64,000 nt of DNA from an uncultured Kofleriaceae bacterium (GTDB lineage: Bacteria; Myxococcota_A; Polyangia; Haliangiales; Haliangiaceae), in assembly GCA_964602685.1 (NCBI GenBank), contig CAZRSQ010000002.1, positions 4,217 through 68,216 of the forward strand. Direction: 5' to 3'. The notes under the pieces were generated by a model. The model saw nothing but the letters and a program-made list of their open reading frames with translations. It did no database searches and had not been told where the DNA came from. Position 1 is the first letter of the stretch. Each line of letters starts with the position of its first letter. This document shows, one piece after another, positions 24,924 through 64,000 of this stretch. Both the position numbers and the translations under genes were made by a program.

Positions 24924-25107
24924 GTCCAAGCGTGCCCCCTCGTCTGCAGAATAGATCGGGGCGCACCCCCGGATGTCGCTCCCAAGACGATCGACCGGCG
25001 CGATTTCGAACAGCCCTGGCGCTCACCCGAACCGGGGGAGATCCGCATCGCGCTGGGAGCCACGTCCGCACGGCCGTTCGAACGAGCCTGCGTGTTACAA
25101 ACGGCCG

Positions 25108-41369: not shown

Positions 41370-41371
41370 GG

Positions 41372-47856: not shown

Positions 47857-48947
47857 TAGGCCCTCCCGCCCTGCGCTGAGGGCGCGGCGCCTGCCGCCGC
47901 AAGCGCTTCCGAGTACCGCTCCGCAAACCACCGCACGCGAGCGACGCCCTCGGACGGCGCGTCCGAGAGGGGCGCGTGAAGGTGCCGGCCGATCTTCGGT
48001 AGGAGCAAGACGAGCAGCAGGTCCGAGGAATCGGGGTCGAGCGCGAAGCGCGCGTCGCCCTGCGCTTGCAGACGCTGCGTGAACTCGTCGATCGCGGCGC
48101 GTCCGGCGCTCGTCATCGGTTCGGGCAGGCTGAGCAGGCGACGGATGCTGTCGGGGTTCACGAGCCGGATGGGCTGCAACGACTCGAACAGCGGACCTGC
48201 GTTGCGGCCGAAGTCGACGCCGGGGAACCAGCCGCGCAAGCGCGCGACGAAGTCGAAGACGTCCGTGAACGCACCGCCCTGCTCGCGCTGGCGGCGCTCG
48301 GTTTCCGCGAACAGGCTGGCGATCGTGCCGTCGCCCATGCGGGTCGACTGGCCGAGCATCACCAGGAAGTTCCGTTCCTGCTCCGACAGCGTCCCGGCGG
48401 CCGGCTTGTAGCCCAGGTCATGTTCGATCTCGTTCCAGACGTGCGCCATCATGCTGCACACCTGCACCTCGCACGGCACGTCCATGACGTTCGCGTACGT
48501 GCCCACGCCGTCGGCGCCGGTCAGGAACACCTCGATGTGGCTGGCCCGGTAGAAGTTGGTCGGGTCATCGCGATTCTTGTCCTTGCGCTCGTGGGTGGGG
48601 CGCTGGCCGCTCCCGTCGACGAAGCGCTTGCTCACGAGCTGCACGACCTGCTCCTCGTGACGTTGCTCGTACGTGGCGACGCGCACCGCCGCGAGGTCGC
48701 GGATCTGGTCGAAGACCGCGTCGACGTCCGGGATCGACTTCTTGCCGGTCGCCGCGAAGCGCCGCAGCTTGCCTTCCAGGCTCTTCGGGCTCTTGGCCCG
48801 CGACGTCACCTGCGCACGGATCGCGTTGCCCTCCACGATCTCGGCGCGACAGATCTCCGCGACGCGCGCCGCAAGCTTGAGGTAGCGGTCGTACTCGCGG
48901 TGGTACCGCTGGACGGCTCGCTTGATGGTGTCGTCGGAGATCGCCAT
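47856..48947 (-). CDS. RelA/SpoT-domain nucleotide pyrophosphokinase (small-alarmone-synthetase / toxSAS-like) with about 150-aa C-terminal extension
   Basis: Synthetase-fold motifs are present: RAKSPKSLEGKL, IRDLAAVRVATY, FYRASHIEVFL and CEVQVCSMMAHVWNEIEHDLGYKP. The gene lies between brxC (6 nt upstream) and pglX (1-nt overlap). Confidence 0.8.
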   Translation of the reverse strand: MAISDDTIKRAVQRYHREYDRYLKLAARVAEICRAEIVEGNAIRAQVTSRAKSPKSLEGKLRRFAATGKKSIPDVDAVFDQIRDLAAVRVATYEQRHEEQVVQLVSKRFVDGSGQRPTHERKDKNRDDPTNFYRASHIEVFLTGADGVGTYANVMDVPCEVQVCSMMAHVWNEIEHDLGYKPAAGTLSEQERNFLVMLGQSTRMGDGTIASLFAETERRQREQGGAFTDVFDFVARLRGWFPGVDFGRNAGPLFESLQPIRLVNPDSIRRLLSLPEPMTSAGRAAIDEFTQRLQAQGDARFALDPDSSDLLLVLLLPKIGRHLHAPLSDAPSEGVARVRWFAERYSEALAAAGAAPSAQGGRA

Positions 48948-48953
48948 GGCGGC

Positions 48954-51900: not shown

Positions 51901-52499
51901 CCCTTCTCCTTCGCCCATTCCTTCTTGTGGAGTTTCCGGTACTGCTCCTCGAACCGATCGAGCTGGCCCTTCTCCTCGAGGCCGATCTCCAGCTCGGAGA
52001 GGTCGAGGTCCTTGGCGTAGCCGAGGCTCTGGAGGAAGAGCCCGTACATGATCTCGGTGAGCGACTGGTTGCCGCTGCGGATGCCGCGGTCCGTCGAGAC
52101 GTCGAAGATGACCGCGTGCGTCGGGATCTGCTCGTTGATGGCCTTGAGGAGGACCTGCAGCTTCTTGTCGCCCGCGCGCTGCGTGAAGCGTGCGGCGGCG
52201 GACTCACCCGCCACGGTCCGATTCTCGACGGCGAGGCCGAGCATCTTGGCGAAGCTCGACTTACCGGAGCCGAAGAACCCGGAGACCCAGATCGCGATGC
52301 CCTCGTGGGGCTTGTTGGGGGTCTCGCGGTAGCTCTCGAGGACGTGGGTGTAGTGATTGCGGATCGCGTCCGTGACGACGTACTCGCTGATCTCGTCGCG
52401 GATCACTTCCTCGTCGGTCTGATCGACCTTGATGACCTCTTCGATGCGACGGTGGATGTCGTTGGCGAAGAGCGACTTGATGGGCTGGGGCGTCGTCAT
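48954..52499 (-). CDS. brxC: BREX BrxC/PglY P-loop ATPase
   Basis: 1181 aa with Walker A GFFGSGKSSFAKMLG near the N-terminus and Walker B LMFVIDEVGQF. Size and position are typical of BrxC. Confidence 0.9.
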   Translation of the reverse strand: MTTPQPIKSLFANDIHRRIEEVIKVDQTDEEVIRDEISEYVVTDAIRNHYTHVLESYRETPNKPHEGIAIWVSGFFGSGKSSFAKMLGLAVENRTVAGESAAARFTQRAGDKKLQVLLKAINEQIPTHAVIFDVSTDRGIRSGNQSLTEIMYGLFLQSLGYAKDLDLSELEIGLEEKGQLDRFEEQYRKLHKKEWAKEKGKVAFALSEASRVMHALDADTYPMADSWVKAVKNKADITPGKLAERANELMKRRRPGRALMFVIDEVGQFVARDVQKMLDLQAVVQSLGVKGRGKHWVVVTSQEKLGELVSGLDDKKIELARLMDRFPLQVHLEPSDISEVTSRRVLSKNAAAQAALGKLFDDNRGRLSEHTRLTAEIRLPELSREAFIDLYPLLPYQIDLIIQVVSGLRTQGGASKHVGGANRTIIKLAQQLLINPAVNLADASVGALVRLDQVYDLVEGNIGSEVRAKIAAISKELVHPLAQPVAKVICLLQYVKSVHRSAENIAAALHGTVAGDSQLASVKEALRELEATHKVRQGDDGYRIPTPAEDDWERLRNGIDPKPGDSHRLYSEVLASFWQPQPAHTLFDTKTFKAGLAIHGREVTSGDMMFQLHLAEDGKEFNTIASELRTRSQQERKHVFWAVALSDAIDRETVQLFRSKEMLARKERETKGEDTPALIAEERVRQRRHGDELRRLLRAACLSGRVFFRGNDRSPTDKAVDVGKTAAEILGQVLPEVFDRYKEAAAKANDVKKGTDALFTAENLQGLPPVFSSLGLLRDEKGKTVFRVESGPLKEVLDRLDERANYGDTASGRYLADEFAKEPFGWDFEAVRLLVLSLLRAGKIEATSKGQTLDAVTGVEARDTFSNNNLFRQASFRPKKGIEFEELIKASEAFRDTFGTEVRELNAAAIVAELRKAVAHQEDTVASALSTLTAHRLPGGTPLEAALGQMKAILRGSDDNAIATFNASHRAIKDAIQRAGQLEHSLTDPRLSDLDRARHVMGALWSFLRTEADIADELRTKAAELDDLLARETFFKELPAIDRHARALEAEYQRRFDVALDARVAAYADAYERLTKAAGWADLDDVQRRRLADPFERGRQRDAHAVPIPQLRADRDACEGRLRAAVAELSRIIDGERVVTVNVASYFAGGIESEEQLDAALDGVREACARLIGAGKKVLIQ

Positions 52500-52512
52500 C
52501 GGGCGGTCCTCA

Positions 52513-53091
52513 TCAGAAGATCTTCGGCCGGTAGTTGTGCTCGGCGTCGAGGACGCCCATGAACTTCAGGCCCGCCGCGCCGTCGAGCGTGCCGGGGTAG
52601 AAGAGGACGGTGGGCACGGTCACGCGCCCCTTGAGCTGCTCGAGGAGCGAGAACGTGCGGTAGACCGGGAACAGGGCACCGGTCCGCATGATGAAGACCG
52701 TGTCGAGCCGTGGGTCGCCGTCCTCGGGGAGCTGCGAGGCGACGAGGTCGACGAGCGGCGCATCCTCCGAGAGGACGGCATGGATGGTCTCGACCACCGT
52801 GGCAGTGCCGTGCTCGCGCTCGGCGTCGAACCATTCTTGCAGCGGACGTTGCAGGCGCATCGCGGCATCGAGGCACTGGGCGAGCGAGACGCGGCGCGGC
52901 GTCCGCTTGCCGGCCTGCTCCAGCCGGGTGCACAGCATCGTGACCTCGCGCCGCAGCTCGAACTCGTCCTCCGGGTCGTAGCGGAAGATGGCGTACGGCA
53001 TGTCGTGGTACGCGCTGAGGCGCGTCCGCGGATCCTCCAGGAGCAGGATGGGCTCGAGGTCTTGCCGGAGCCGCTGCTGCAGGTCGTTCAT
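52513..53091 (-). CDS. brxB: BREX BrxB (DUF1788)
   Basis: 192-aa protein lying between brxA and brxC. Its ATG overlaps the brxA stop (ATGA). The sequence (PYAIFRYDPEDEFELRREV...VLFYPGTLDG) is consistent with DUF1788. Confidence 0.8.
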   Translation of the reverse strand: MNDLQQRLRQDLEPILLLEDPRTRLSAYHDMPYAIFRYDPEDEFELRREVTMLCTRLEQAGKRTPRRVSLAQCLDAAMRLQRPLQEWFDAEREHGTATVVETIHAVLSEDAPLVDLVASQLPEDGDPRLDTVFIMRTGALFPVYRTFSLLEQLKGRVTVPTVLFYPGTLDGAAGLKFMGVLDAEHNYRPKIF

Positions 53092-53873
53092 GCCACCATC
53101 CTCTCGGCGTACTCACGCGTCGACGCGCACGGCAGCGAGAGCTGCACGAGGCTGCCCGCGACCTGATAGTCGAGCTTGCGGAACTGGTGGAGCCGCAGGA
53201 GCTCGCGCTCGACGTCGGCGGGACGCATCAGGAACATGCGCCATTCGGGAGACGTGACGAGCTTCCCGGGGGCGTGGTCATGCTCCAGCATCGAGTGGAG
53301 CAGATAGAGGAACGCCGGTTCGGGAAGGTGATACGACGCGAACTCCTTCACGACGGAGCCGCGCAGCAGGCCGAAGTCGACGGCGAGCTTCAGCAGGCCG
53401 GCGGCGACCCGCTTGGTCGTCTCTTCCGACCACGCGTGTTCGGTCTTGCCCCCGCGCTTGCCGATGCCCTGGAGGAAGGTGAGCAGGTCGTCGGCGTGGA
53501 CGCGGAACGCGCCGGCGTCGTAGCTGGGGAAGAGCCAGTTCACGAGGAAGTCGCGCAGGAGGAACTCGTCGCGCGTCATGTGCCAGAGCATGAGCGGCTT
53601 CCAGGTGTCGAGATCGCAGCCGTGCTTGGCGAGGATCACGAGCGCGCGGTCGCGGTCATCGGGCTCGAACCGGCGGTTGAACGCCTTGGCGACGTCGCGG
53701 AGCCAGGTGTCGGAGCCCGCGCCGATGAAGTTCTCCGCCCGCAGGCGATCGAGGTTCTCGCGCTTCGACCGGGCAAGGTCCCAGGCCGCGAAGACCGCGT
53801 AGGTCTCCTCGATCATCGAGCCCTTGACGATCGTGAACGAGGACACGACGTCGGCGCGCCGGCCGAGCTTCAC
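53088..53873 (-). CDS. brxA: BREX BrxA (DUF1819)
   Basis: The C-terminal roughly 260 aa of the 462-aa track ORF have normal composition (FTIVKGSMIEETYAVFAAWDL...DFLVNWLFPSY...). GTG 53873 overlaps the stop of the upstream gene (GTGA). An alternative start is ATG 53816. The upstream extension is Arg-rich artefact. Confidence 0.75.
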   Translation of the reverse strand: MKLGRRADVVSSFTIVKGSMIEETYAVFAAWDLARSKRENLDRLRAENFIGAGSDTWLRDVAKAFNRRFEPDDRDRALVILAKHGCDLDTWKPLMLWHMTRDEFLLRDFLVNWLFPSYDAGAFRVHADDLLTFLQGIGKRGGKTEHAWSEETTKRVAAGLLKLAVDFGLLRGSVVKEFASYHLPEPAFLYLLHSMLEHDHAPGKLVTSPEWRMFLMRPADVERELLRLHQFRKLDYQVAGSLVQLSLPCASTREYAERMVA

Positions 53874-54436
53874 AGGTCGGCCCTTCGCGCGTACGGGACG
53901 GCCAGCGCGCCCGGTTCGCCGCGAGCGAAGCCGAGCGCGAGCAGGGCGATGTCCTCGTTGCGATCGGCGAACGTGCCGGGCAACGGGACGGCACGGTTCT
54001 CGGCCGAGCGGCGCAACTTGCCGTACGCCTCGACGTTGCGATCGGTGACGAGGTCGAACGACCGCAGCAGCGCGACGAGATCCGTGCCGGCGAGGCCTTC
54101 GATTCGCTCGAAGAATGGGCTCCAGTCGGAGGCGTGGTCGAGCCAGTGCTCCCAGCGCGCGTCGAACTCCTCCTCGAGGGCCTCGGGGAGGCGCCACAGC
54201 GTCACGCTGCCGGGAGGCTCGAACACTTCCGAACATCGATGGGCGGCGACGGCGAAGACGCTGCGGGCCTGCGCGAAGCGATGCGTGCGCGGGAACCCGC
54301 GGCGGAGCGCGGCAGCGCCGAGCCGGCCGAGCTGGCCCTTCGTGTTCCACCACTTCGCGAGGTCCATCTCGCCGAACCGGGCGACGACCACGCGCAGCTT
54401 GAGGAGGCGGTCGAGGTCGATCGATGGAGCGGGCAT
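53870..54436 (-). CDS. Small protein at the head of the BREX operon (BrxE-like; family name from memory)
   Basis: ATG 54436 gives MPAPSIDLDRLLKLRVVVARFGEMDLAKWWNTKGQLGRLG... 188 aa, translationally coupled to brxA. Confidence 0.5.
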   Translation of the reverse strand: MPAPSIDLDRLLKLRVVVARFGEMDLAKWWNTKGQLGRLGAAALRRGFPRTHRFAQARSVFAVAAHRCSEVFEPPGSVTLWRLPEALEEEFDARWEHWLDHASDWSPFFERIEGLAGTDLVALLRSFDLVTDRNVEAYGKLRRSAENRAVPLPGTFADRNEDIALLALGFARGEPGALAVPYARRADL

Positions 54437-54666
54437 GATGGGCTGCTGGGGCTCGCGACCTGAGCCGGCCTGGCATCCCGCGCCAGCCCCGCGTCGCAGT
54501 GGACGTGGCAGTAAAACCCGATGCCGGTTCTCACGCAAGGCCTGGGAAGCATAGGTACTTTCGGCAGATCACCCTTGTCGCGTGAACGGGCGCCTACGTG
54601 CGCGAAGATACTGTCGGTTCGGCGGCAGATCCCCGTCAAGATCGAACGGGAGTGGCCTGGTCGCGT

Positions 54667-55743
54667 ATGGTCCTCGCGTTGCTGGCCCATCACGCGCTCG
54701 AGCGGATCGTTCGCTGGTACGCCGACCGAGTCTACGATCGGTGGGAGGGTGGATCCCGCCGGCCGTTCTATTGTGATCCGGCGCGCGTGGGCGCGTTTGC
54801 GATCACGCCGGCGAGCCTGGCGGCTGGTCGCGAGGACGCGCTCTTCCGGCTGCTGGTGCTGATGGCGATGTACCAGTCCCGGCGGGACGTCGACATCATG
54901 GCGATCCAGCGGCGGATGTCGCGCGCCAGCGCGACGGCGCTCGTGTCGCGGCGCCGGCTGCGGGTGCTCGTCGACGGTGCCAGCTGCACGCTGCCGCGCG
55001 ACCGGGCGTCCTTCGACCATGCCTGCACGGTGCGCCGCGACTTCTCCCTGGGCCGCGCGACGTGTGACCGCCATCCGCGGGCGGCGTGTCACGTCAAGGA
55101 CGCGACGATGGCGATCGGGCGCATGGGCGACATGGGCAAGCTCGCGACGTCGGCGTGGCTGCACGTCGATGCCGGCGGCGGGTTGCGGCGGCTGGTCGAC
55201 GAGGCCGCGGGCTCGGGCGCCGATGCTGCCGCCGCCGCCGACCGGATGATCCTCCACCTGTCCCAGGTCCACCGGATCGGGACGAAGCTCGCCACGATGT
55301 ACGTATCTGCGCTCTCGACGCCGGCGCTGGCGCCGGGGCTGACGCCATGGTGGCCGCGCGTCGACGGCAACCACCTGATCGTCGTCGATGCCAACGTCGG
55401 GCGCGTCATCGACCTGCTGCGACCGCGGGGCCCGCGGACCTACGCTGCACGCTCGGCCTGGTTCCGCGACGTCGCGTCGAGGATCGATCTCCGGAAGTTC
55501 CGGCAGGACTGGCCGCGGCGCTCGCCCCGGCTGGTCCAGCAAGCGGTCTACGTCTTCCGATCGCAATCGAACCGAATGGCAGCTGGCGACGACTGCTCCG
55601 GTACCGCGCGATGCGATGCGGGCGTGCCGGAGCTGTGCCCGTTTCCGCACGTACCACCGGGACGACGCTCGCTTGTCCGCGTTGCGAACAAGCGAGCGAC
55701 TCACCCGCATGGGGGGAGTGCAAGCACGACTACGGTTGGATAA
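54667..55743 (+). CDS. Hypothetical protein with HhH-like motif (possible HhH-GPD/endonuclease III-superfamily relative)
   Basis: ATG 54667. The composition is mostly normal. The HhH-hairpin-like segment is LSQVHRIGTKLATMYVSAL, and there are several Cys near the C-terminus (CSGTARCDAGVPELCPF). It is divergent from the BREX operon. Confidence 0.5.
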   Translation: MVLALLAHHALERIVRWYADRVYDRWEGGSRRPFYCDPARVGAFAITPASLAAGREDALFRLLVLMAMYQSRRDVDIMAIQRRMSRASATALVSRRRLRVLVDGASCTLPRDRASFDHACTVRRDFSLGRATCDRHPRAACHVKDATMAIGRMGDMGKLATSAWLHVDAGGGLRRLVDEAAGSGADAAAAADRMILHLSQVHRIGTKLATMYVSALSTPALAPGLTPWWPRVDGNHLIVVDANVGRVIDLLRPRGPRTYAARSAWFRDVASRIDLRKFRQDWPRRSPRLVQQAVYVFRSQSNRMAAGDDCSGTARCDAGVPELCPFPHVPPGRRSLVRVANKRATHPHGGSASTTTVG

Positions 55744-55767
55744 GCTCGCCATCAAAAGGGGGGCGCG

Positions 55768-56370
55768 ATGACCTCGAGAGCCGTCGTGGTGTTGCTGTGT
55801 GTCGTGATGGGATGTACTTCGTCGGATGACGATGATGATGGCGCTGCGGTGTGCGGCAATGCCGTGTGCGAGGCGGGTGAGAGCTCGTTGACGTGCCCTG
55901 GTGACTGCGAGGGAACAGCGACCTGCAGTCCTGCGAATCCTGGTTCATGCGGTGGCGAGACGATCTGCATCAACCAGCAGTGCGTCCCGGCATTCGGTCG
56001 CAACTACGTCTTCACGGTGACCAACGGCGTCTTCACGCAGCGCGATGACACCGGGGCGACGTGGGATGCCGCAGGAGGACTACCGGATCCACTGGTGATC
56101 CTCACCATCAACGGTGTCGACTTCACCACGCCCGCAGTGGCCGATACCCTCACTCCGACCTGGAACTTCGTCACGCCGCCCGTGCTCGTGCCTGGCGGAA
56201 CGGTGCTGCTCATCGCAGTCTATGATGAGGATTTGACTGCGAACGATCTGGGATGGGCGTGTCAGGCGAACCCACTGACCGCCGACTTCCTTCGCGGTGG
56301 CGGGGTGTCCTGCAATGGCCAGGGTGCGCTCAATGGAGCCACGGTGACCGTTGCGATCCGTCCGAACTGA
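55768..56370 (+). CDS. Lipoprotein with Cys-rich module and C2-like domain
   Basis: Lipobox MTSRAVVVLLCVVMGC. Cys-rich module CGNAVCEAGESSLTCPGDC. C2-like signature DPLVILTINGVDFTTPAVADTLTPTWNF...LLIAVYDEDLTANDLGW. Confidence 0.6.
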   Translation: MTSRAVVVLLCVVMGCTSSDDDDDGAAVCGNAVCEAGESSLTCPGDCEGTATCSPANPGSCGGETICINQQCVPAFGRNYVFTVTNGVFTQRDDTGATWDAAGGLPDPLVILTINGVDFTTPAVADTLTPTWNFVTPPVLVPGGTVLLIAVYDEDLTANDLGWACQANPLTADFLRGGGVSCNGQGALNGATVTVAIRPN

Positions 56371-56576
56371 CGTGCTTGACGCTTGGAGCTCGGTGCGCTA
56401 TCGATGAGACTGGGTCTTCGAAGCACCCAGCAGGATCGTCGGGCGCCGCCAGCGCCGAGAGCAAGCTTCGTGATGTCAGACCGCACCCTGTAGCTGTAAC
56501 TGCACGGACAACTTCATCGATCACCGCGTCCCGCCTGGCGGCAAATGGGACGACGACGGTGATTCATGAGGTGACC

Positions 56577-58415
56577 ATGCAGCACGAAACCAGCGAACCC
56601 AGCGGCCTCACCGCACCTACGCCGATCGCGTGGTTGCTCCTTCAGGATGGCCACGCCATCCCGATCACTGGCCTCGCGCCCGATGACCTCAAGGCGGCGA
56701 GCACGCACGCTGTGCTGGCGCCGGACAGGGAGCCGCTCCCGCATCGGCGACGCCTCACGGCCATCGCGGGCATGCTCGGGTTCCGCGGCGATTTTGGCAA
56801 CTACGTGCACGAGGGGTGGCCGAAGGTGCAGCGGTTCCTTCGCGATCGCGGATGCGGCGAACGGCGCGACCTGTTCTCGTTCAGGGAGTGGGGCACCGCC
56901 ACGCTGCATTTCAGCAAGCTCCGCCCCAACCGACGACAGCTTGCCGACCGGATCTTCGTCAGTGGACACCGCCGACCCTCGCGCGTCTTCCTCGGCGCCG
57001 GCGTTGACTGGGCCGCGTGGGATGAGGCGGTTCAGTCCCGAACGCTGTCATCGTGGTCGCTGCGCCTTCCGCATGGAGCGCTGCGCGCCGTCGGCGCCCC
57101 GGTCGACTTCCTGATCGCCAACCGTCACGAGCTCGTCGGCCAGTGGGGATTCCTCGATGACAAGCTGGTCGATGGAGAAGTCCGCGAGGTGATCAACAAG
57201 ACCTACCACGCCGTTCCACGTTCGCAGGCCGAGCTCGATGCCCACGCCGCGGATGTCCTGCTGGTCGTGCGGGCGTTCCGGGCCGCCTTCCCCGAGAACG
57301 GGCCCGGGTGGGTCGACGTGTTGCCGTTCGAAGACAATGACCGGCTCGTGTTCCTGCGCGCGCCGGATGGGACCTGGGATCTGATCTGGCGGGACCTCCG
57401 CACCGACCCACCGCCGCAGGCCGGCATCGCGTCGAGTCACTACAAGCTCCACCCGCGCGATCTGCCCCGGTTGCTGGCGAGTGAGCAGGACCTGGCGCGT
57501 CGTCACTACGAACGTCGAGGGATCTGGGACGAACGCGAAGCGCATCTCGCCGAGCAGCACTTCTACGACGTCGGGCACACGCAGGAACAGCGCCTCATCA
57601 CGTCCAACGAAGCGGTCCGTGAACGCTGGCTCGCCGACACCAATGGACCGCGTCCCGGCGGACCGCCGCGCACCACGCTCCCTCCCCCGCGATTCGAGTC
57701 GGTGCGAGTGGGCGATCGGACCGTCCTCGTCTCGCCACTGATCACGCTCGGCGAGTTCAGGGCCATGCTCGCCGACACCGACTACCTGGAGAGGCGCGAT
57801 CCTGACAGCGAGCCTTGGGATCGCGCCAACGACGAAGCGCTGGTGCCGCCGGAAGCGCCGGTGGGGGCGACCTGGGCCGACGCACAGGCTTTCTGCGCGT
57901 GGAAGGAGCAGCAGCTCGGGCAGGTGCTTCGCTTGCCCAGCGTGGCCGAGCTTCGAGCGCTTCGTCCCTTCCACTCCGAGCACTACGAGTACCTCGCGGC
58001 GCACGACTTTCCGTGGGAGAAATGGCCGCCTCGGCCACTGACGGGCCCTGGTGGCAACGCCGAGGACGTGGCTCAGGTACCCGTACCGTCGGCGGTGGCA
58101 TGGTCCGAGCCGCGCTTTCACGAACCCGGTCCGGGCCGCCCGGAGTACCCGGCGCGCGGAGGATGGGCGTTGGGGGATCCGGACGGTCGGCGGCGATGGA
58201 TCGAGGACTTCCCGCCGCGTGCCGCGTGGACCGATGCCGCCTGGGCCGAGCACAGTGGGCTCCGCTTCATCGACGCCTGGGATGCGTACGAGTGGGCCCA
58301 GGAGCAGGGCTTCATCTCGGGTCGCTTTTGGCAGGGTCCCATCGGTCCGAATAGCTGGGGCGCGTACAAGAACGTGAAGGTGGGCTTCCGCGTCGTCCTC
58401 GACGGGGCACGGTGA
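56577..58415 (+). CDS. Protein with C-terminal FGE-sulfatase (SUMF1/EgtB-like) domain, N-terminal roughly 400 aa unassigned
   Basis: ATG 56577 (MQHETSEPSG...). The FGE-like block is LVSPLITLGEFRAMLADTDY...PVGATWADAQAFCAWKEQQLGQVLRLPSVAELRAL...FRVVL. Confidence 0.7.
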   Translation: MQHETSEPSGLTAPTPIAWLLLQDGHAIPITGLAPDDLKAASTHAVLAPDREPLPHRRRLTAIAGMLGFRGDFGNYVHEGWPKVQRFLRDRGCGERRDLFSFREWGTATLHFSKLRPNRRQLADRIFVSGHRRPSRVFLGAGVDWAAWDEAVQSRTLSSWSLRLPHGALRAVGAPVDFLIANRHELVGQWGFLDDKLVDGEVREVINKTYHAVPRSQAELDAHAADVLLVVRAFRAAFPENGPGWVDVLPFEDNDRLVFLRAPDGTWDLIWRDLRTDPPPQAGIASSHYKLHPRDLPRLLASEQDLARRHYERRGIWDEREAHLAEQHFYDVGHTQEQRLITSNEAVRERWLADTNGPRPGGPPRTTLPPPRFESVRVGDRTVLVSPLITLGEFRAMLADTDYLERRDPDSEPWDRANDEALVPPEAPVGATWADAQAFCAWKEQQLGQVLRLPSVAELRALRPFHSEHYEYLAAHDFPWEKWPPRPLTGPGGNAEDVAQVPVPSAVAWSEPRFHEPGPGRPEYPARGGWALGDPDGRRRWIEDFPPRAAWTDAAWAEHSGLRFIDAWDAYEWAQEQGFISGRFWQGPIGPNSWGAYKNVKVGFRVVLDGAR

Positions 58416-58422
58416 GGAACCC

Positions 58423-58773
58423 ATGCCCAACAAGAGCCTCACCTGCATGGGTGCGGTGTCGAAGGCACCGCTCACCGAGTACATCTCCGAGCATGACGCG
58501 CTCGGGGGCGCACGCTACGCGCTCGAGCGATTCGGCAATCACCTCGTGCCATATCGCTGCCGCCGATGCCGTTACTGGCACCTCTCGCCGTCCGAGCGTC
58601 AGACTCCTGGTACCACCTGTTCGAGCTGTCACGGACGAGACGGCCGCCCGAAGGCAAGCTACCAATCCGAAGAGGCGGCCACCCGCCGGGCGTTCATCCT
58701 CCAGCGCGAACGGCATGTCACGTTGCGAGCCTATCAGTGTCCGTACGGCGGGTGGCACCTGACCAAGGGCTGA
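58423..58773 (+). CDS. Small Cys-rich (zinc-ribbon-like) protein with an internal duplicated motif
   Basis: ATG is preceded by GGTGAGGAA. The duplicated motif is LVPYRCRRCRYWHLSP and LRAYQCPYGGWHLTKG, with TTCSSCHG in between. 116 aa, 7 nt after the FGE-domain gene. Confidence 0.5.
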   Translation: MPNKSLTCMGAVSKAPLTEYISEHDALGGARYALERFGNHLVPYRCRRCRYWHLSPSERQTPGTTCSSCHGRDGRPKASYQSEEAATRRAFILQRERHVTLRAYQCPYGGWHLTKG

Positions 58774-58867: not shown

Positions 58868-60178
58868 ATGACGCTCCGGGTCCCTTTCCTCACCGAGATC
58901 GATAGCCGGGCGATCATCAAAGGCTCGCGAGACCCGCTCGGCCAGGTGCCGATCTGGACACGGCTGGGCCGTCATGTCGTCGGCAACCTGACCACGGTCA
59001 CCACCTCGGTCCGCGACTTCACCGTCTTGCTGCTCGGGCTGCGGTTCGTCGAGCGCGTGCTCGAGCAGGAGGGCGGGCAGAACGAGGTCGAGGTGTTTCT
59101 TCGCTGGGAGCAACTGGCGAGTTACGCGCGCGTCCGGCACAAAGATGTGTCGTTCCGCGGCATCGAGAAGGTGAAGGCCAACCTCGCCGACAGCACGAAG
59201 GTGACGCTGTCTGCCGACCGGCGCTTCCAGATCCTCGGCAACCAGAAGATCTACGGCGTGTGGGGCCTCTACACCGTCGCCGCGGCCGCGTCGGCATTGA
59301 CCCACGGGGCCCCCGCACAGCTGACGCCGCAGGCGCGAGCGTTTGTCGAACGCCACTACGTCGGCGCGCTCACCCGGGCCGGCTTTCGCAACGGCGACGC
59401 CATCGTGAAGTTGATCGGCGCCGAGCAGTCGTCGCTGCATACCGACGGGAGGGACGAGAAGCTGCTCCAGGCGATCGCCCAGTTGCTGAGACCCGACCGG
59501 TTCCTCCCCGCCGAGCAGGCGTTCTATGACGAGCACCTGGTGCGGGGCGGCCCAGACGACGAGACCCAGGGCCGGCAGGGCCGGCTCGCGGTCCTGCTCG
59601 AGAAGTCCGCCCACGATGCGCGGTTCACCTGGTCGCCGGCAGCGGTGAGCACGCTCGCCGTCCGCGCCAAGGACCGCGCAGAGCGAGAGTCGCTCGGCTG
59701 GCGGCTCGACCGGATCCGGGACTGCGAGACGGTGATGGCACCTGCCTACCGGTTGTTCCTGTTCCTGTTGTCTCGCGAGCATCAGACCATCGACGGCGTT
59801 GCGCGCGAGGTTCGCCAGGTCTGGGGCGAGCGCCTCACGAACGTGGATCGCACGCGGTTCGCGGCCCTCGGGTCGGAGCTCCGGCAGGCGGTCGGCGATG
59901 AAGCCGCCACGGCGAGATGGATCGAGCTCGCTCGCTCGCTGGAGTCGGGGGCATACGAAGAGGCGATCGAGCTGCTGATCGCCCACAACGGGCAGATGAT
60001 GAAGCAACGCGGCTCCGGAGCGCCGTGGGTCGACGTCCACAAGGGGAGACTGCGTGTCAGGTTCCGCGACGATCTCGCGTCCCTGCCCGAGCGGGCGGAG
60101 CTGCCGCACCTCTGGCGGTTCCCGTACTTCCTCGATTCGCTACGCGCCGTGACCGGCCAGCTGCGGAGCGCGCCGTGA
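58868..60178 (+). CDS. Uncharacterised 436-aa protein, first gene of a coupled unknown-PLD-SNF2 trio
   Basis: Normal composition (IIKGSRDPLGQVPIWTRLGRHVVGNLTTVTTSVRDFTVLLLG...). Its stop overlaps the GTG start of the PLD gene (GTGA at 60175-60178). Confidence 0.6.
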   Translation: MTLRVPFLTEIDSRAIIKGSRDPLGQVPIWTRLGRHVVGNLTTVTTSVRDFTVLLLGLRFVERVLEQEGGQNEVEVFLRWEQLASYARVRHKDVSFRGIEKVKANLADSTKVTLSADRRFQILGNQKIYGVWGLYTVAAAASALTHGAPAQLTPQARAFVERHYVGALTRAGFRNGDAIVKLIGAEQSSLHTDGRDEKLLQAIAQLLRPDRFLPAEQAFYDEHLVRGGPDDETQGRQGRLAVLLEKSAHDARFTWSPAAVSTLAVRAKDRAERESLGWRLDRIRDCETVMAPAYRLFLFLLSREHQTIDGVAREVRQVWGERLTNVDRTRFAALGSELRQAVGDEAATARWIELARSLESGAYEEAIELLIAHNGQMMKQRGSGAPWVDVHKGRLRVRFRDDLASLPERAELPHLWRFPYFLDSLRAVTGQLRSAP

Positions 60179-62217
60179 GCGATCACGACATCCCGCATCA
60201 GATCCTCTCGGATCACTTTCAGGAGCGTCTGGGAGGCCGCCGGATGCTGGGCGCGGTGTTCACCGCGTTCCAGTTCGATCCGGGGTTCTTCGAACGCGAG
60301 ATCCTGCCGGCGTTCCTCGACGTGAACCTGAGCCACGCGCCGGTGATCAAGCTGGTCCAGCTCGAGGATGGCCTGCGCGAACTGCCGGTGGGGATCGCCG
60401 TGTACTACGACGCCAACGGGCTCGTGCTCAGCGACGATGGTGCCGCCAAGCTCGATGTCAGACGGATTCCCTTGCGCGTGCCCACCGGGCTCTTCCATCC
60501 CAAGAACGTGTTCGCGCTCGTCGAGGAGAAGGAACCCGACGAGGACGGCAAGCTGGTGCGCACCTTGCTCGTCGCCGCGCTGTCGGCAAACCTGACGCGC
60601 TCGGGATGGTGGCAGAACGTCGAGGCGTGCCACGTCGAAGAGTTGACCGATCGCGACGTCACCTGTATGCGCGACGACCTGCTGGCGTTCTTCAAGCTCC
60701 TGCGGGCGCGAGCGCCGAGCGGTTGTGATCACACCGCGCTCGACGCGATCACGGCGTTCGTGCGGGGCACCGAACAGCGGCCGCAGCGCAAGGTGAACGG
60801 TCGTGTCCAGGCGCACTTCTTCGGTGGCGACCGGCCATTCGACGAGTTCCTCGCCGACGTACTGGGTGCAGATCCGCGCGAGCTGTACCTGGAGGTGATC
60901 TCGCCGTACTTCGACAAGGAAGCCCGGTCCGAGCCGCTCGAACGGTTGATCAAGCGGTTCCGGCCACGCGCTGTCCGGGTGTCGCTGCCGCGCAACGCCG
61001 CCGGTGAGGCCGAAGTGGCACCGGAACTCTACGCATGGCTCGACGCTCAGGACGGCGTGGAATGGGGGAAGCTGCCAAGGGCGATGACGCGCGCCGGGAA
61101 GGGCGAGGATGCACGCCCGCGGACGGTCCACGCGAAGGTCTACCGCTTCTTCTCCATGCACAAACGCCAGGAGTTCCTGGCCGTCGGCTCGGTGAACTTG
61201 ACCCGCCCCGCGCACCAGCAGGGAGGAAACGTCGAATCGGCGATCGTGCTGGAGATCGAGCCTCCCCGGCGCCCTGACTTCTGGATGGAGCGCGATCGGA
61301 GCAAGCCCGCCGTATTCGTGACCCCGAGTCACGATGACGACGGTGACCTCGCGGTCGCGGACATCGGCTCGCGGCTATCGCTCCGGTACCACTGGGATCG
61401 GGGCATCGCCGAGGCGTTCTGGGACGCGTCACAGGCGGCACCTCCGCTCGAGGTCCAGGCAGGCGGCGTGCCGCTCTTCTCGCTGGGATCGCTTGCACCC
61501 CGCACGTGGGTGGAGCTCGACTCGGCGGCGGCGGCGAGCTTGCGTTCGATCCTCGCGTCCACCTCGTTCGTGTCGGTCGCAGGCGACCGTGACGAACCGG
61601 TGATGGTCCTCGTCCTCGAAGAGGAGATGTTCAAGAAACCGCCCCTGCTCAGTCAGCTGTCGGTCAAGGACATCCTCAGGTACTGGTCGCTGTTGACGGC
61701 GGAGCAGCGCAACGAGTTCATTCAGCTGCGTGCCACCGAGCTCCTGGGCGACGGAGGAAGCGAGCTCGTGCCGAAACTTCGGCAGACCGAGGACCTCGAC
61801 ACGATCTTCGATCGCTTCGCCGGGATGTTTCACGCCTTCGAGTGCGTCGAGCGCCTGGTGGCCGAGGCACACGCGGCCAACAACGAGAAGGCGGCGCTGT
61901 ACCGGATCTTCGGCACGAAGCACGACTCGCTCGGAAACTTGCTGCAGCGCGTGCACGCCGACCCCGAGCGGGATCCGGTCGAGAAGTACGTGATCGCCAT
62001 GTGCGCACGGCAGCTGTGTCGCGAGTTGCGGAAGCAGTGGCCCGAGCTCTGGCAGGCCCACCCGGCGTCGACCACCGAGCTCGAGGCGCTGCTGCGCGTG
62101 AGCGAGACGCTGCGCGCGGAAATCATCGCCAAGAACCCAGCCGAGATGGCCTCGTTCCTCGACTGGTTCGATCGCTGGTTCCTGAGCAGGGCACGCCCGC
62201 TGGAGCAACCGTCGTGA
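60175..62217 (+). CDS. PLD-superfamily (two HKD-like motifs) putative nuclease
   Basis: GTG 60175 (VSDHDIPHQILSDHFQ...). HKD-like motifs are LFHPKNVF...LSANLTRSGW and TVHAKVYRF...VGSVNLTRPAH. The upstream 86 aa of the track ORF overlap the previous gene. Confidence 0.8.
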   Translation: MSDHDIPHQILSDHFQERLGGRRMLGAVFTAFQFDPGFFEREILPAFLDVNLSHAPVIKLVQLEDGLRELPVGIAVYYDANGLVLSDDGAAKLDVRRIPLRVPTGLFHPKNVFALVEEKEPDEDGKLVRTLLVAALSANLTRSGWWQNVEACHVEELTDRDVTCMRDDLLAFFKLLRARAPSGCDHTALDAITAFVRGTEQRPQRKVNGRVQAHFFGGDRPFDEFLADVLGADPRELYLEVISPYFDKEARSEPLERLIKRFRPRAVRVSLPRNAAGEAEVAPELYAWLDAQDGVEWGKLPRAMTRAGKGEDARPRTVHAKVYRFFSMHKRQEFLAVGSVNLTRPAHQQGGNVESAIVLEIEPPRRPDFWMERDRSKPAVFVTPSHDDDGDLAVADIGSRLSLRYHWDRGIAEAFWDASQAAPPLEVQAGGVPLFSLGSLAPRTWVELDSAAAASLRSILASTSFVSVAGDRDEPVMVLVLEEEMFKKPPLLSQLSVKDILRYWSLLTAEQRNEFIQLRATELLGDGGSELVPKLRQTEDLDTIFDRFAGMFHAFECVERLVAEAHAANNEKAALYRIFGTKHDSLGNLLQRVHADPERDPVEKYVIAMCARQLCRELRKQWPELWQAHPASTTELEALLRVSETLRAEIIAKNPAEMASFLDWFDRWFLSRARPLEQPS

Positions 62218-64000
62218 TCGACGTCGACCTCGCAGGTCAGCTCCTCGACTACGGCGCGCGGATCGACAGCCCGGACCGGGCACGCGAACAGCTACAGGGC
62301 GCGGTGGCGGTCCACAACCTGCTGCAGCGGCACCGGGTGGCCTACCTCGCCGACGAGGTAGGGATGGGCAAGACGCTGGTTGCCCTCGGCGCGGTCGCGC
62401 TGTTCCGTCATTTCCAACCACGCTTCCGGGTCCTGATCATCGCGCCGCGCGAGAACATCCAGCTCAAGTGGCAGAAGGAGCTGCGCGCGTTCGCCACGCA
62501 CAACGTGCGCTTCCCTGATCTCCGCATGCGCGGTCTGCGTGGAGCGCCCGGGCGCCCGATGTTCCACGCCAAGGACCTGATGTCGCTGCTGAGGGAGACC
62601 TCTCTCGACGCCGAACGCGACTTCTTCGTGCGGATGCCGAGCTTCAGCCTGCAACTCGGCAAGGAGGAGCAGCACTGGGATCGGCTGCGTGACGAGGTCC
62701 GTCGACACCTCCCGTGGCTGTCGCGTGAAGCGATGGACCTGCGCGGGCACCGGCAACGCAAGGACAACGTCGCACGCGCCCTGTGCTGTGCGCTCCCGGA
62801 GTTCGACCTGGTCATCGTCGACGAGGCGCACAACCTCAAGCACGGCTTCCAGGCAGACGTCGCGGCTCGAAATCGTGTGCTCGGGATCTCGATGGGGCAT
62901 CCGCGCGGCGACGCCGATCCCAAGCTGTTTCCCAGCTACGGGCCGAGGGCGAAGCGGGTCTTGTTTCTCTCGGCGACGCCGATCGAGGAAACCTACGTGC
63001 ATCTCTGGAACCAGCTCGACGTGTTCGGTCTGGGCGCTGGCTACGAGGCGCTCGCCGACAAGGGCGTGTCCGAGAGCGAGAAGCAACGGCTCGCAGGCCG
63101 GTTCCTGATCCGCCGCGTGACGGCGATCCGCACGGCTGACGCCGAGCTCACCAAGAACCAGTACCGGCGCGAATGGCGCCGCGGCGGCGTCCGCGTCCAC
63201 GATGAGCCCGTGCGCATCACCGACGACCGCCAGCGGCTGACGATCGCGCTGGTCCAGAAGAAGGTCGGCGAGCTGCTGGGGAGCGAGCGCTTCAAGAATC
63301 GCTTCCAGATCGGCATGCTCGCGTCCTTCGAGAGCTTCCTGGAGACCGCGAAGCTCAAGACCCACGAGGACGACGCCTCCAACTTCGACGACGCGGAGCA
63401 GACCGACGAGGCGCTCGAGCGCGAAGGCATCGATGTCCAGGCGCTCAACCGACTCGCCCGATCGTACCGCGAGCGCTTCGATGGTGAGATGCCCCATCCG
63501 AAGATGGACGCGCTCGTCGAGGATCTCCAGCAGTGCTGGCAGACGGGCCGCAAGGCGCTCGTGTTCGTCCGGCGGGTGGCCTCGGTGAGGGAGCTGCGGG
63601 CCAAGCTCGAGGAATCCTACGATCGGTGGCTCCTGAGCCGGCTGACGGCCGAGCTGCCGGAGGCCGTGCGCGAGCAATTCGCGGCGGTGCGCCGGCGTTA
63701 CCGGGCTGAACGAGCGGCGACCAACGACCAGCAAGAGCTCGAGGACGGCGGCACCTTCTTCGCCTGGTTCTTCCAGGGCGAAGGGCCAGGCAACGTGCTT
63801 TCCGGTGCCAACATCCAGCGCCGGTTCACGCAGGCAGGCTCCGTCTTCTCGACGTTCTTCGAGGACAATCACGTCGCCGCCCTGCTGGGCGTGCGGCCCG
63901 GCGAGGTGACGAAGTCCTTGGCCGCCACGCTCGGCATCTCGGAGGATGGACTACGGGCCGAGCTGCGCGTGCGCTCGGCGAGATTCCTCGGTCGGGCCAA
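62214..64000 (+). CDS. SNF2-family helicase (partial; continues beyond window end)
   Basis: Hand translation from GTG 62214 (GTGA overlap with the PLD stop) gives VIDVDLAGQLL...VAYLADEVGMGKTLVALGAV (motif I), LVIVDEAHNLKH (motif II) and VLFLSATPIE (motif III). The frame stays open to 64000. It is not in the ORF track because it has no stop in the window. Confidence 0.85.
   Translation, partial: MIDVDLAGQLLDYGARIDSPDRAREQLQGAVAVHNLLQRHRVAYLADEVGMGKTLVALGAVALFRHFQPRFRVLIIAPRENIQLKWQKELRAFATHNVRFPDLRMRGLRGAPGRPMFHAKDLMSLLRETSLDAERDFFVRMPSFSLQLGKEEQHWDRLRDEVRRHLPWLSREAMDLRGHRQRKDNVARALCCALPEFDLVIVDEAHNLKHGFQADVAARNRVLGISMGHPRGDADPKLFPSYGPRAKRVLFLSATPIEETYVHLWNQLDVFGLGAGYEALADKGVSESEKQRLAGRFLIRRVTAIRTADAELTKNQYRREWRRGGVRVHDEPVRITDDRQRLTIALVQKKVGELLGSERFKNRFQIGMLASFESFLETAKLKTHEDDASNFDDAEQTDEALEREGIDVQALNRLARSYRERFDGEMPHPKMDALVEDLQQCWQTGRKALVFVRRVASVRELRAKLEESYDRWLLSRLTAELPEAVREQFAAVRRRYRAERAATNDQQELEDGGTFFAWFFQGEGPGNVLSGANIQRRFTQAGSVFSTFFEDNHVAALLGVRPGEVTKSLAATLGISEDGLRAELRVRSARFLGRA

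What the first reader, a model, noticed from the sequence alone, without database searches (positions are those of the whole stretch)
58868..64000. Unknown-PLD-SNF2 three-gene module coupled by GTGA overlaps (candidate defence system, truncated by window end)
Three plus-strand genes are chained by start/stop overlaps (GTGA at 60175-60178 and at 62214-62217). The first is a 436-aa protein with no motif I can name. The second is a 680-aa protein with two HKD-like PLD motifs (FHPKNVF..SANLT; VHAKVYRF..GSVNLT). The third is an SNF2 helicase (DEVGMGKT, DEAHN, SATP). PLD nucleases paired with SF2/SNF2 helicases occur in several defence systems, for example DISARM DrmC/DrmD. DISARM's DrmA, DrmB and methylase are not seen in the visible part here, and the first gene is unassigned. 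Further genes may follow beyond 64000.
Basis: partly seen in the sequence, partly recalled or inferred. Interest (0 to 1): 0.65.

Follow-up and report, generated by a model that had tools for sequence, protein, structure and literature searches.

The report
Four-gene PLD nuclease–helicase defence cassette
The three overlapping genes are real and belong to a widespread, tightly coupled four-gene cassette (unknown helical protein, PLD-type nuclease, SNF2-like motor, small chaperone-like protein) that is a distant, uncatalogued variant of the untested candidate phage-defence system PDC-M27 and a relative of the proven system Azaca.

Summary
In detail: three plus-strand genes (436 aa, 680 aa, a truncated helicase) are joined by GTGA overlaps at the stated coordinates, and all cited motifs are present. 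An identical public contig extends the locus. The helicase is 1138 aa, and a fourth gene of 124 aa (D) overlaps its stop codon.

A-B-C-D is collinear in genomes from many phyla; D follows the helicase in 47 of 47 informative loci. The flanks vary and are rich in defence genes. Here the neighbour is a complete BREX system.

PADLOC profiles assign A, B and C to the untested candidate PDC-M27, but weakly (66, 53 and 252 bits, against 571-1288 bits for true PDC-M27 on two plasmids). B and C also match Azaca ZacB and ZacC. It is not DISARM.

- B keeps two invariant HxK…SxN half-sites.
- C keeps all SF2 ATPase motifs.
- A is a confident all-helical model with no match in the PDB or the viral structure library.
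- D has the type III secretion chaperone/YbjN fold.

Compared with true PDC-M27, this clade adds D and a helicase C-terminal extension of about 230 aa.

Most likely it is an Azaca-like, ATP-driven nuclease complex against invading DNA, with D as a regulator. I rate it a new variant of a known kind, of moderate interest.

The parts
58868..60178 (+). Gene A, 436 aa: helical protein of unknown fold with a highly conserved N-terminal motif (PFLTxxDxRAxxKGSRDPLG…W…GR…N…RDFT).
   Evidence: ORF. There are 671+ close homologues of about 435 aa and 1131 clusters at 50% identity. It has no Pfam or NCBIfam hit even at E<=10. PADLOC PDC-M27A matches at 4.8e-19, and all 21 aligned members match it while none matches ZacA. 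The AF2 model has pLDDT 88 and pTM 0.85, is all-alpha, and residues 1-19 are disordered. No fold match in the PDB or BFVD.
58919..59023 (+). Most conserved stretch of A (KGSRDPLG … VRDFT, residues 18-52). It is shared with bona fide PDC-M27A proteins.
   Evidence: Invariant columns; coordinates.
60175..62217 (+). Gene B, 680 aa: PLD-superfamily phosphodiesterase (predicted nuclease) with two HxK…SxN half-sites in one chain, plus a conserved C-terminal helical region of about 280 aa with unknown function.
   Evidence: Translation. PADLOC PDC-M27B 4e-15 and ZacB 1.3e-13. PLDc_2 is hit by 27 of 29 members and RE_NgoFVII PLD by 6 of 29. Invariant residues are H108, K110, S137, A138, N139, H319, K321, G338, S339, N341.
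60493..60597 (+). First PLD half-site: FHPKNVF (residues 107-113) … SANLT (137-141).
61126..61203 (+). Second PLD half-site: VHAKVYRF (residues 318-325) … GSVNLT (338-343).
62214..64000 (+). Gene C, the first 595 of 1138 aa: SNF2-like SF2 ATPase/translocase. It continues to window-equivalent position 65630. Gene D (124 aa, T3SS-chaperone/YbjN fold) follows at window-equivalent 65623-65997 (L001 12812-13186), outside the window.
   Evidence: PADLOC PDC-M27C 2.8e-75 and ZacC 3.3e-20. Pfam ResIII, Helicase_C, DEAD and SNF2-rel_dom. Invariant motifs are DEVGxGKT, DExH, SATP and QRxGRxDR. Nearest PDB sequences are RapA, ISWI and INO80. For D: 47 of 47 loci carry it, AF2 pLDDT is 92.6, and Foldseek matches ExsC, SycN-YscB, SycH, SpcU and YbjN.
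62352..62375 (+). Walker A / motif I: DEVGMGKT.
62820..62834 (+). Motif II: DEAHN (DExH).
62970..62981 (+). Motif III: SATP.

Best explanation
This is a self-contained, translationally coupled four-gene operon (A-B-C-D). It most likely encodes an Azaca-like nuclease-motor complex that protects the cell from phages or other invading DNA. C is an SNF2-type ATPase that tracks along double-stranded DNA. B is a PLD-family phosphodiesterase whose two HxK half-sites form one active site in a single chain, and it cuts the DNA. A is a helical subunit with no known relative that is needed for assembly or target recognition, as ZacA is needed for Azaca cleavage. D is a small protein with the fold of type III secretion chaperones, which clamp extended peptides of a partner. 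D probably acts as a regulator or assembly factor, most plausibly through the helicase C-terminal extension of about 230 aa that occurs only in the clade that carries D. What is shown: gene structure, co-conservation, homology to PDC-M27 and to ZacB/ZacC, intact catalytic motifs, the fold of D, and defence-island context. What is inferred: complex formation, DNA cleavage, the target, and the roles of A and D.
For: A-B-C-D is collinear in many phyla. D is present in 47 of 47 loci that have a full C and enough downstream DNA. Overlapping start/stop junctions are conserved: B/C shows a 4-nt overlap in 48 of 57 loci and an 8-nt overlap in 9 of 57. PADLOC gives PDC-M27A/B/C plus ZacB and ZacC. Homology to bona fide PDC-M27 on the Rhodoferax and Vibrio plasmids is confirmed with my own HMMs: A 1e-15 to 1e-19, B 1e-14 to 1e-18, C 1e-65. 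PLD and ATPase catalytic residues are invariant. D has the T3SS chaperone/YbjN fold. Recurrent neighbours in other genomes are type IV restriction enzymes, DruE, ZorD, PDC-S02, HNH nucleases, BrxC and type III methylases, and none is constant. In this window a complete BREX system lies 4.3 kb upstream. For Azaca, all three proteins, the PLD site and the helicase Walker A motif are required to cleave phage T4 DNA in vitro, and the system gives >10^6-fold protection against T4 (bioRxiv 10.1101/2025.07.10.664194, read).
Against: No member of this clade, nor PDC-M27 itself, has been tested. PDC-M27 is listed only as 'assign as candidate', and no paper in the library mentions it in its text. Similarity to the Azaca profiles is remote (49 and 70 bits), and A does not match ZacA/DUF6361. 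Both PLD half-sites lack the Asp of the classical HxK(x)4D motif. The Pfam PLDc_2 score of the window protein itself is below the gathering cut-off (19 vs 27 bits). Physical interaction of the four proteins and any role for D are inferred only from gene coupling and fold.
Confidence: 0.65

Rival explanations
1. It is simply an ordinary member of PDC-M27 or Azaca. In that case gene D and the helicase C-terminal extension are dispensable lineage-specific decoration, and nothing distinguishes it functionally from the three-gene systems.
For: All 21 A homologues, plus B and C, have their best PADLOC hit to PDC-M27. Gene order and the N-terminal motif of A are shared with the plasmid PDC-M27 systems. 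One PADLOC PDC-M27C profile is 1217 positions long, so long helicase variants may already lie inside that candidate class.
Against: Scores are 5- to 15-fold lower than for bona fide PDC-M27: 66, 53 and 252 bits against 571-605, 729-805 and 1206-1288. Identity of A to the plasmid PDC-M27A proteins is about 20%. D is present in 47 of 47 informative loci with overlapping start/stop codons, which argues that it is obligatory in this clade. D has no PADLOC profile and is absent downstream of both plasmid systems.
Confidence: 0.2
2. It is a DISARM- or Dpd-type system, or a fragment of one, as the PLD plus SNF2 pairing (DrmC/DrmD; DpdK/DpdE) suggested to the first reader.
For: There are weak PADLOC and NCBIfam hits of C to DrmD, DpdE and BrxHI/HII, restricted to motif I or motifs V-VI.
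Against: Those hits are local, at 16-60 bits against curated cut-offs of 500-950 bits. B gives no DrmC or DpdK hit at E<=0.01. No DrmA, DrmB (DUF1998), methyltransferase or dpdA-D gene is conserved next to the cassette in 79 loci. The best hits are PDC-M27 and Zac.
Confidence: 0.03
3. It is not an immune system but a housekeeping or mobile-element function, for example a DNA repair or recombination motor-nuclease, or a plasmid/ICE maintenance module, that merely lodges in variable genomic islands.
For: No experimental defence data exist for this family. SNF2 ATPases and PLD nucleases also act in repair and transcription; RapA is the nearest solved relative. The two bona fide PDC-M27 systems found lie on mobilizable or conjugative plasmids next to transposase/recombinase genes.
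Against: The phyletic distribution is patchy, the flanks vary from genome to genome, and the recurrent neighbours are known defence genes, with BREX in this window. There is homology to Azaca, which has demonstrated anti-phage activity. No plasmid in PLSDB carries this clade's A protein.
Confidence: 0.12

Closest known systems
PDC-M27 (PADLOC-DB v2 phage defence candidate; CAS_00110 in Payne et al., bioRxiv 10.1101/2024.01.29.577857)
   Same: It has the same gene order: unknown helical A, PLD-like B, SF2/SNF2-like C. The genes are tightly coupled. A is homologous along its whole length, including the N-terminal DPLG…W…G…N…R..T motif. Both are associated with BREX and other defence loci.
   Different: The homology is distant: about 20% identity in A, and profile scores of 66, 53 and 252 bits against 571-1288 bits for true members. 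The true members examined have three genes with a helicase of about 870 aa. The window's clade has a helicase of about 1140 aa with an extra C-terminal region of about 230 aa and a divergent RecA2 insert, plus an obligatory fourth gene D. PDC-M27 itself is untested.
Azaca (ZacA-ZacB-ZacC; Millman et al. 2022; biochemistry in bioRxiv 10.1101/2025.07.10.664194)
   Same: It is a three-part logic of an uncharacterised first protein, a PLD nuclease and an SF2 helicase in one operon. B matches ZacB (1.3e-13) and C matches ZacC (3.3e-20). For Azaca the complex of all three proteins cuts phage T4 DNA and needs the PLD site and the helicase Walker A motif.
   Different: A does not match ZacA or Pfam DUF6361. 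The B and C matches are remote and partial. Azaca has no D-like gene in its published description. The target specificity of the window's system is unknown.
DISARM (DrmA, DrmB, DrmC PLD, DrmD SNF2, methylase)
   Same: A PLD-family protein occurs together with an SNF2-like helicase in a defence context.
   Different: There is no DrmA, DrmB or methyltransferase. C matches DrmD only locally, and B does not match DrmC.
Type III secretion class I chaperones / YbjN family (ExsC, SycN-YscB, SycH, SpcU, CesT, YbjN, AmyR)
   Same: D has the same small alpha/beta fold (Foldseek probability 1.00, TM 0.6-0.7). Two D homologues carry Pfam YbjN.
   Different: Sequence identity is 10-20%. No secretion system lies nearby. 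D is strictly linked to a helicase-nuclease operon, and its partner and function are untested.

Membership tests
PDC-M27 (PADLOC candidate) | Protein matching the PDC-M27A profile | tested here: met
   E 4.8e-19, 66 bits, but only residues 237-428 are aligned in the best stretch. All 21 homologues match. My family HMM hits true PDC-M27A at 1e-15 to 1e-19 along the full length.
PDC-M27 (PADLOC candidate) | Adjacent protein matching the PDC-M27B profile (PLD-like) | tested here: met
   E 4e-15, 53.5 bits, residues 12-649 against profile positions 4-617 of 635.
PDC-M27 (PADLOC candidate) | Adjacent protein matching the PDC-M27C profile (helicase) | tested here: met
   E 2.8e-75, 252 bits for the full-length protein.
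PDC-M27 (PADLOC candidate) | Would be called by the PADLOC pipeline with its own score and coverage thresholds; three-gene composition | tested here: inconclusive
   The PADLOC pipeline itself could not be run. Scores are 5- to 15-fold below those of true members, and the unit here has a fourth obligatory gene.
Azaca | ZacA (DUF6361) protein | tested here: not met
   There is no ZacA PADLOC hit for A or for any of 21 homologues at E<=0.01. There is no Pfam hit at E<=10. A profile-profile comparison could not be done because no ZacA sequence was available.
Azaca | ZacB PLD nuclease | tested here: met
   ZacB profile E 1.3e-13 over residues 94-361. The HxK/SxN residues are invariant.
Azaca | ZacC SF2 helicase with Walker A | tested here: met
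   ZacC profile E 3.3e-20 over residues 184-870. Motifs I, II, III and VI are invariant.
Azaca | Anti-phage activity and ATP-dependent cleavage of phage DNA by the complex | not testable with these tools
   This needs plaque assays and biochemistry.
DISARM | DrmA helicase plus DrmB (DUF1998) core | tested here: not met
   Neither is present in the cassette or conserved in the flanks of 79 loci.
DISARM | DrmC PLD and DrmD SNF2 by curated models; associated methyltransferase | tested here: not met
   NCBIfam DrmD gives 24.6 bits against a cut-off of 610. B has no DrmC hit. No methyltransferase is conserved nearby.
PLD (HKD) superfamily | Two HxK(x)4D…GSxN motifs forming one active site | tested here: met
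   H108/K110…S137-A138-N139 and H319/K321…G338-S339-x-N341 are invariant in 29 sequences. PLDc_2 is hit by 27 of 29 members. The Asp of the motif is absent in both halves, and the window protein's own Pfam score is sub-threshold.
SNF2 family of SF2 ATPases | Motifs I-VI of SF2 with SNF2-type signatures; similarity to SNF2 models | tested here: met
   SNF2-rel_dom gives 25.9-28.8 bits against a cut-off of 24.9, though only over motifs I-Ia. The nearest PDB sequences are RapA, ISWI and INO80. The motifs are invariant.
YbjN / T3SS class I chaperone fold (gene D) | Characteristic alpha-beta-beta-beta-alpha-beta-beta-alpha fold | tested here: met
   AF2 pLDDT 92.6. There are 15 PDB matches with E<=1e-3, all chaperones or YbjN-like, with TM 0.56-0.72. 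Pfam YbjN scores E 0.008 for the query, and the domain is precomputed for two homologues.

The most novel reading that the evidence does not exclude
The A-B-C-D clade is a distinct, widespread defence system. In it a secretion-chaperone-fold protein (D) acts as a safety catch or partner-switching sensor on a PLD nuclease / SNF2 motor complex. D would hold an extended segment of the helicase C-terminal extension, or of A's conserved disordered N-terminus, until a phage cue releases it. That regulatory principle has not been described for nuclease-helicase immunity. A would then represent a new fold for target recognition.
Probability: 0.3. Interest if true: 0.65.

Novelty: new variant of a known kind. 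Interest (0 to 1): 0.45.

Why it matters
Nuclease-helicase operons are among the most common and least understood bacterial immune systems. Azaca is the only relative with biochemistry, and the role of its first subunit is still unknown.

This clade is large: more than 1,100 protein clusters at 50% identity, across Myxococcota, Planctomycetota, Acidobacteriota, Proteobacteria, Verrucomicrobiota, Actinomycetota and others. It is absent from curated annotation, where every member is called 'hypothetical'. It adds an obligatory chaperone-fold subunit.

Testing it would turn an untested candidate class into a validated system. It could also show how such complexes are kept off on self DNA when no methyltransferase is present.

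For genome annotation, D and the long helicase form give a simple signature that current PADLOC profiles capture only weakly.

Tried and rejected
- **DISARM and Dpd.** I rejected both. Only local helicase-motif hits were found, and there are no DrmA/DrmB/methylase or dpd genes.
- **Functional link to the four upstream plus-strand genes** (381 aa, 200 aa C2-like, 612 aa FGE-sulfatase-like, 116 aa Cys-rich). I rejected this, because none is found next to the cassette in 79 loci.
- **A conserved fifth gene or methyltransferase.** None exists; the largest flank cluster covers 5 loci.
- **Known relatives of A.** Pfam at E<=10, NCBIfam, PDB sequence profile, Foldseek against the PDB and Foldseek against BFVD all returned nothing.
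- **PDB sequence profiles for B and D.** Nothing significant was found.
- **Direct comparison of A with ZacA.** This was not possible. No ZacA sequence could be obtained: the preprint has no held supplements, and the representative search lists only the best 150 hits.
- **Literature on 'PDC-M27'.** No paper mentions it in its text. It appears only in a supplementary table.
- **Plasmid collection.** No homologue of this clade's A was found.
- **Promoter and terminator scan.** It gave nothing informative.
- **Organism name.** It could not be recovered.
- **DNA beyond gene D.** It could not be reached, because every accessible contig ends about 37 nt after D.
- **First attempt to fold D.** I solved this by finding D in the protein database.
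Full report
**Observation**

The region contains three plus-strand ORFs exactly as described:
- 58868-60178 (ATG start, 436 aa);
- 60175-62217 (GTG start, 680 aa);
- an ORF from 62214 that runs off the window.

The sequence reads …gcgccGTGAgcg… at 60175-60178 and …cgtcGTGAtcg… at 62214-62217, so both start codons overlap the preceding stop codon by 4 nt. The window is 69% G+C and the cassette 67%. Long spurious ORFs on other frames are therefore common, and ORF length alone is not evidence of a gene. The evidence that these are genes comes from conservation, described below.

**Extending the locus**

Protein A is found with an identical sequence on Logan assemblies of several sequencing runs. 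Contig L001 matches the window over 11,189 nt with no mismatch and continues 2,034 nt past position 64000. It shows two things:
- The helicase is 1138 aa (window-equivalent 62214-65630).
- A 124-aa ORF, here called D, starts 8 nt before the helicase stop codon (ATGATTGA), at window-equivalent 65623-65997.

All accessible contigs that carry D end about 37 nt after its stop codon. I could not see what follows.

**Conservation**

A has more than 671 close homologues of almost constant length (about 435 aa, 47-76% identity). All are annotated 'hypothetical' and none has a Pfam domain. A profile search of 1.84 billion representatives finds 1131 clusters at E<=1e-3.

Seventy-nine genomic loci were fetched from species-representative genomes. 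They cover Myxococcota, Planctomycetota, Acidobacteriota, Alpha-, Beta- and Gammaproteobacteria, Verrucomicrobiota, Actinomycetota, Gemmatimonadota, Chlorobiota/Ignavibacteria, Rokubacteria and others. In these loci:
- tblastn with A, B, C and D shows the four genes in the same order on the same strand with no spacing, wherever the contig is long enough.
- With HMMs, D is found directly after C in 47 of 47 loci that have a full-length C and at least 380 nt downstream. The median distance is -1 nt.
- Overlapping junctions are conserved. A start codon giving a 4-nt overlap at B/C exists in 48 of 57 loci, and one giving an 8-nt overlap in the other 9. C/D junctions overlap by 8 or 11 nt in 40 of 48 loci.
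- The four genes just upstream in the window (381, 200, 612 and 116 aa) are never found next to the cassette elsewhere.
- No other gene is conserved in the flanks; the largest flank cluster covers 5 loci.

The unit is therefore a four-gene operon, A-B-C-D.

**The proteins**

*B* is a PLD-superfamily protein.
- The window protein scores below the Pfam threshold (PLDc_2, 19 bits).
- However, 27 of 29 family members hit PLDc_2, with a best E-value of 1.3e-6. Six hit the PLD domain of the restriction enzyme NgoFVII.
- The residues H108, K110, S137-A138-N139 and H319, K321, G338-S339, N341 are invariant.
- These are two half-sites in one chain, the arrangement that builds one active site in single-chain PLD enzymes (established knowledge of the family).
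- The Asp of HxK(x)4D is missing in both halves.
- A conserved C-terminal region of about 280 aa has no assignable domain.

*C* is an SF2 ATPase.
- Invariant motifs are DEVGxGKT, DExH, SATP and QRxGRxDR.
- Pfam hits are ResIII, DEAD, Helicase_C and SNF2-rel_dom.
- Its nearest solved sequences are RapA, ISWI and INO80.
- I therefore accept 'SNF2-like'.

*A* has no match in Pfam (even at E<=10), NCBIfam or PDB sequences.
- Its AlphaFold model is confident (pLDDT 88, pTM 0.85) and all-helical, with small beta hairpins.
- Foldseek finds nothing in the PDB (best E 0.48) or in BFVD (best E 0.1).
- Its most conserved part is the N-terminus (PFLTDLDSRAAVKGSRDPLG…W…GR…N…RDFT). The first 19 residues are modelled as disordered, which is what one expects of a segment that folds on a partner. 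That last point is inference.

*D* folds confidently (pLDDT 92.6).
- Its fold is that of type III secretion class I chaperones and the YbjN family. PDB matches include PA14_16140, ExsC, SycN-YscB, SycH, SpcU, VecA, YbjN, AmyR and CesT, with probability 1.00 and TM 0.56-0.72.
- This is consistent with a weak Pfam YbjN hit and with a precomputed YbjN domain in two homologues.

**Classification**

PADLOC profiles give PDC-M27A (4.8e-19), PDC-M27B (4e-15) and PDC-M27C (2.8e-75). They also give ZacB (1.3e-13) and ZacC (3.3e-20). All 21 aligned A homologues hit PDC-M27A and none hits ZacA.

PDC-M27 is cassette CAS_00110 (three protein families, a listed count of 127). It is marked 'Assign as candidate PDC-M27' in a supplementary table of Payne et al. 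(bioRxiv 10.1101/2024.01.29.577857). That study derived 145 untested candidates from genes embedded in BREX, DISARM and type I R-M loci. No paper in the library mentions PDC-M27 in its text.

I found two bona fide PDC-M27 systems on plasmids of Rhodoferax antarcticus and Vibrio nigripulchritudo. Their proteins score 571-605, 729-805 and 1206-1288 bits on the same profiles. The window's proteins score 66, 53 and 252 bits. Comparing the two groups:
- My HMMs of the window family detect the plasmid proteins: A at 1e-15 to 1e-19, B at 1e-14 to 1e-18, C at 1e-65. They find no D in either plasmid locus.
- The plasmid helicases are about 870 aa. They lack the last 230 or so profile positions of the window family's C, and they are not followed by a D-like gene.
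- A aligns with the plasmid A proteins at about 20% identity and shares the N-terminal signature.

The window's cassette therefore belongs to a distinct, long, four-gene clade of a superfamily that also contains three-gene PDC-M27 and, more remotely, Azaca.

DISARM and Dpd are excluded. Hits to DrmD and DpdE are local and far below the curated cut-offs. B does not hit DrmC or DpdK. DrmA, DrmB, a methylase and dpd genes are not linked.

**Context**

Upstream in the window, on the minus strand, lies a complete BREX system: brxE, brxA, brxB, brxC, an embedded RelA/SpoT-like gene, pglX, pglZ and brxL. Further upstream are a second BrxL-like Lon protease and a NERD-kinase protein.

In other genomes the recurrent neighbours of the cassette differ from genome to genome:
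- type IV methyl-directed restriction enzymes (4 loci);
- DruE (3 loci);
- ZorD (3 loci);
- PDC-S02 (3 loci);
- HNH nucleases (5 loci);
- UvrD/GajB-like helicases (5 loci);
- type III methyltransferases (3 loci);
- BrxC (3 loci).

This is the pattern of a self-contained module that travels between defence islands.

**Mechanism**

The only relative with biochemistry is Azaca. ZacA, ZacB and ZacC together are needed to cut phage T4 DNA. Cleavage is lost when the PLD site or the ZacC Walker A motif is mutated. The system gives strong but narrow protection against T-even phages (bioRxiv 10.1101/2025.07.10.664194).

By homology of B and C, by the intact catalytic residues, and by the conserved translational coupling, I propose the following. 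A, B, C and D form a complex. C translocates on DNA using ATP, and B cleaves the DNA. A would be an obligatory structural or recognition subunit.

T3SS-type chaperones act by clamping extended peptides of a partner, and ExsC works by partner switching (established knowledge of the family). On that basis D is most plausibly a regulator or assembly factor. Its co-occurrence with the helicase C-terminal extension suggests that this extension is its partner.

None of these steps was tested. The absence of any linked methyltransferase means that self/non-self discrimination cannot work as in classical R-M systems. Whether the cue is DNA modification (as suspected for Azaca), a DNA structure or a phage protein is unknown.

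**Verdict**

Two corrections apply: the core is already catalogued as an untested candidate related to Azaca, and the real unit has a fourth gene outside the window. I rate it a new variant of a known kind, of moderate interest (0.45).

Noticed in passing
window 39336-54436, minus strand: A complete BREX system lies here: brxE (53870-54436), brxA (53088-53873), brxB (52513-53091), brxC (48954-52499), pglX (43924-47931), pglZ (41372-43927), brxL (39336-41369). It combines a type-1-like gene order with BrxE, a protein first described for type 6.
   Followed up: partly
window 47856-48947, minus strand: A 363-aa gene with a RelA/SpoT nucleotidyltransferase domain (Pfam 1.5e-12) is embedded between brxC and pglX and has no PADLOC hit. 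By the 'guilt-by-embedding' logic it is itself a defence candidate.
   Followed up: no
window 21160-23199, minus strand: A second BrxL-like Lon protease (BrxL_N, BrxL_ATPase, Lon_C) lies about 16 kb from the first. Its neighbours (for example the 575-aa ORF at 23202-24929) have no Pfam hit. It may belong to another BREX-like or unknown system.
   Followed up: no
window 25775-30031, plus strand: A 1418-aa ORF combines a NERD nuclease-related domain, a Ser/Thr protein kinase domain and an RNA polymerase alpha-CTD-like domain. This architecture is suggestive of a defence or signalling protein.
   Followed up: no
L001 13187-13223 (window-equivalent 65998-66034) and the ends of L083-L087: Every independent Logan contig that carries gene D stops about 37 nt after its stop codon. 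This suggests a repeat, a mobile element or strain heterogeneity immediately downstream of the cassette.
   Followed up: no
window 54598-58773, plus strand: Four genes lie between BREX and the cassette: 381 aa (no hit), 200 aa with a C2-like domain, 612 aa with a weak FGE-sulfatase match, and 116 aa that is Cys-rich. They are not co-conserved with the cassette, and their function is unknown.
   Followed up: partly
L026 11288-12623; L053 10248-11806; L050: In two genomes 1.3-1.5 kb is inserted between A and B, possibly an insertion element. In one genome A stands alone with 8.5 kb of unrelated DNA downstream. Several loci (L069, L079, L081, L082) hold only N-terminal fragments of A. These look like signs of decay or turnover.
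   Followed up: no
L088 (Rhodoferax plasmid NZ_CP019242.1) 736-5350: Directly upstream of the bona fide PDC-M27 there are an ATP-binding protein, a DUF2779 protein and a WYL-domain protein. A Tn3 transposase and a recombinase lie downstream. This looks like a mobile defence island on a mobilizable plasmid.
   Followed up: no
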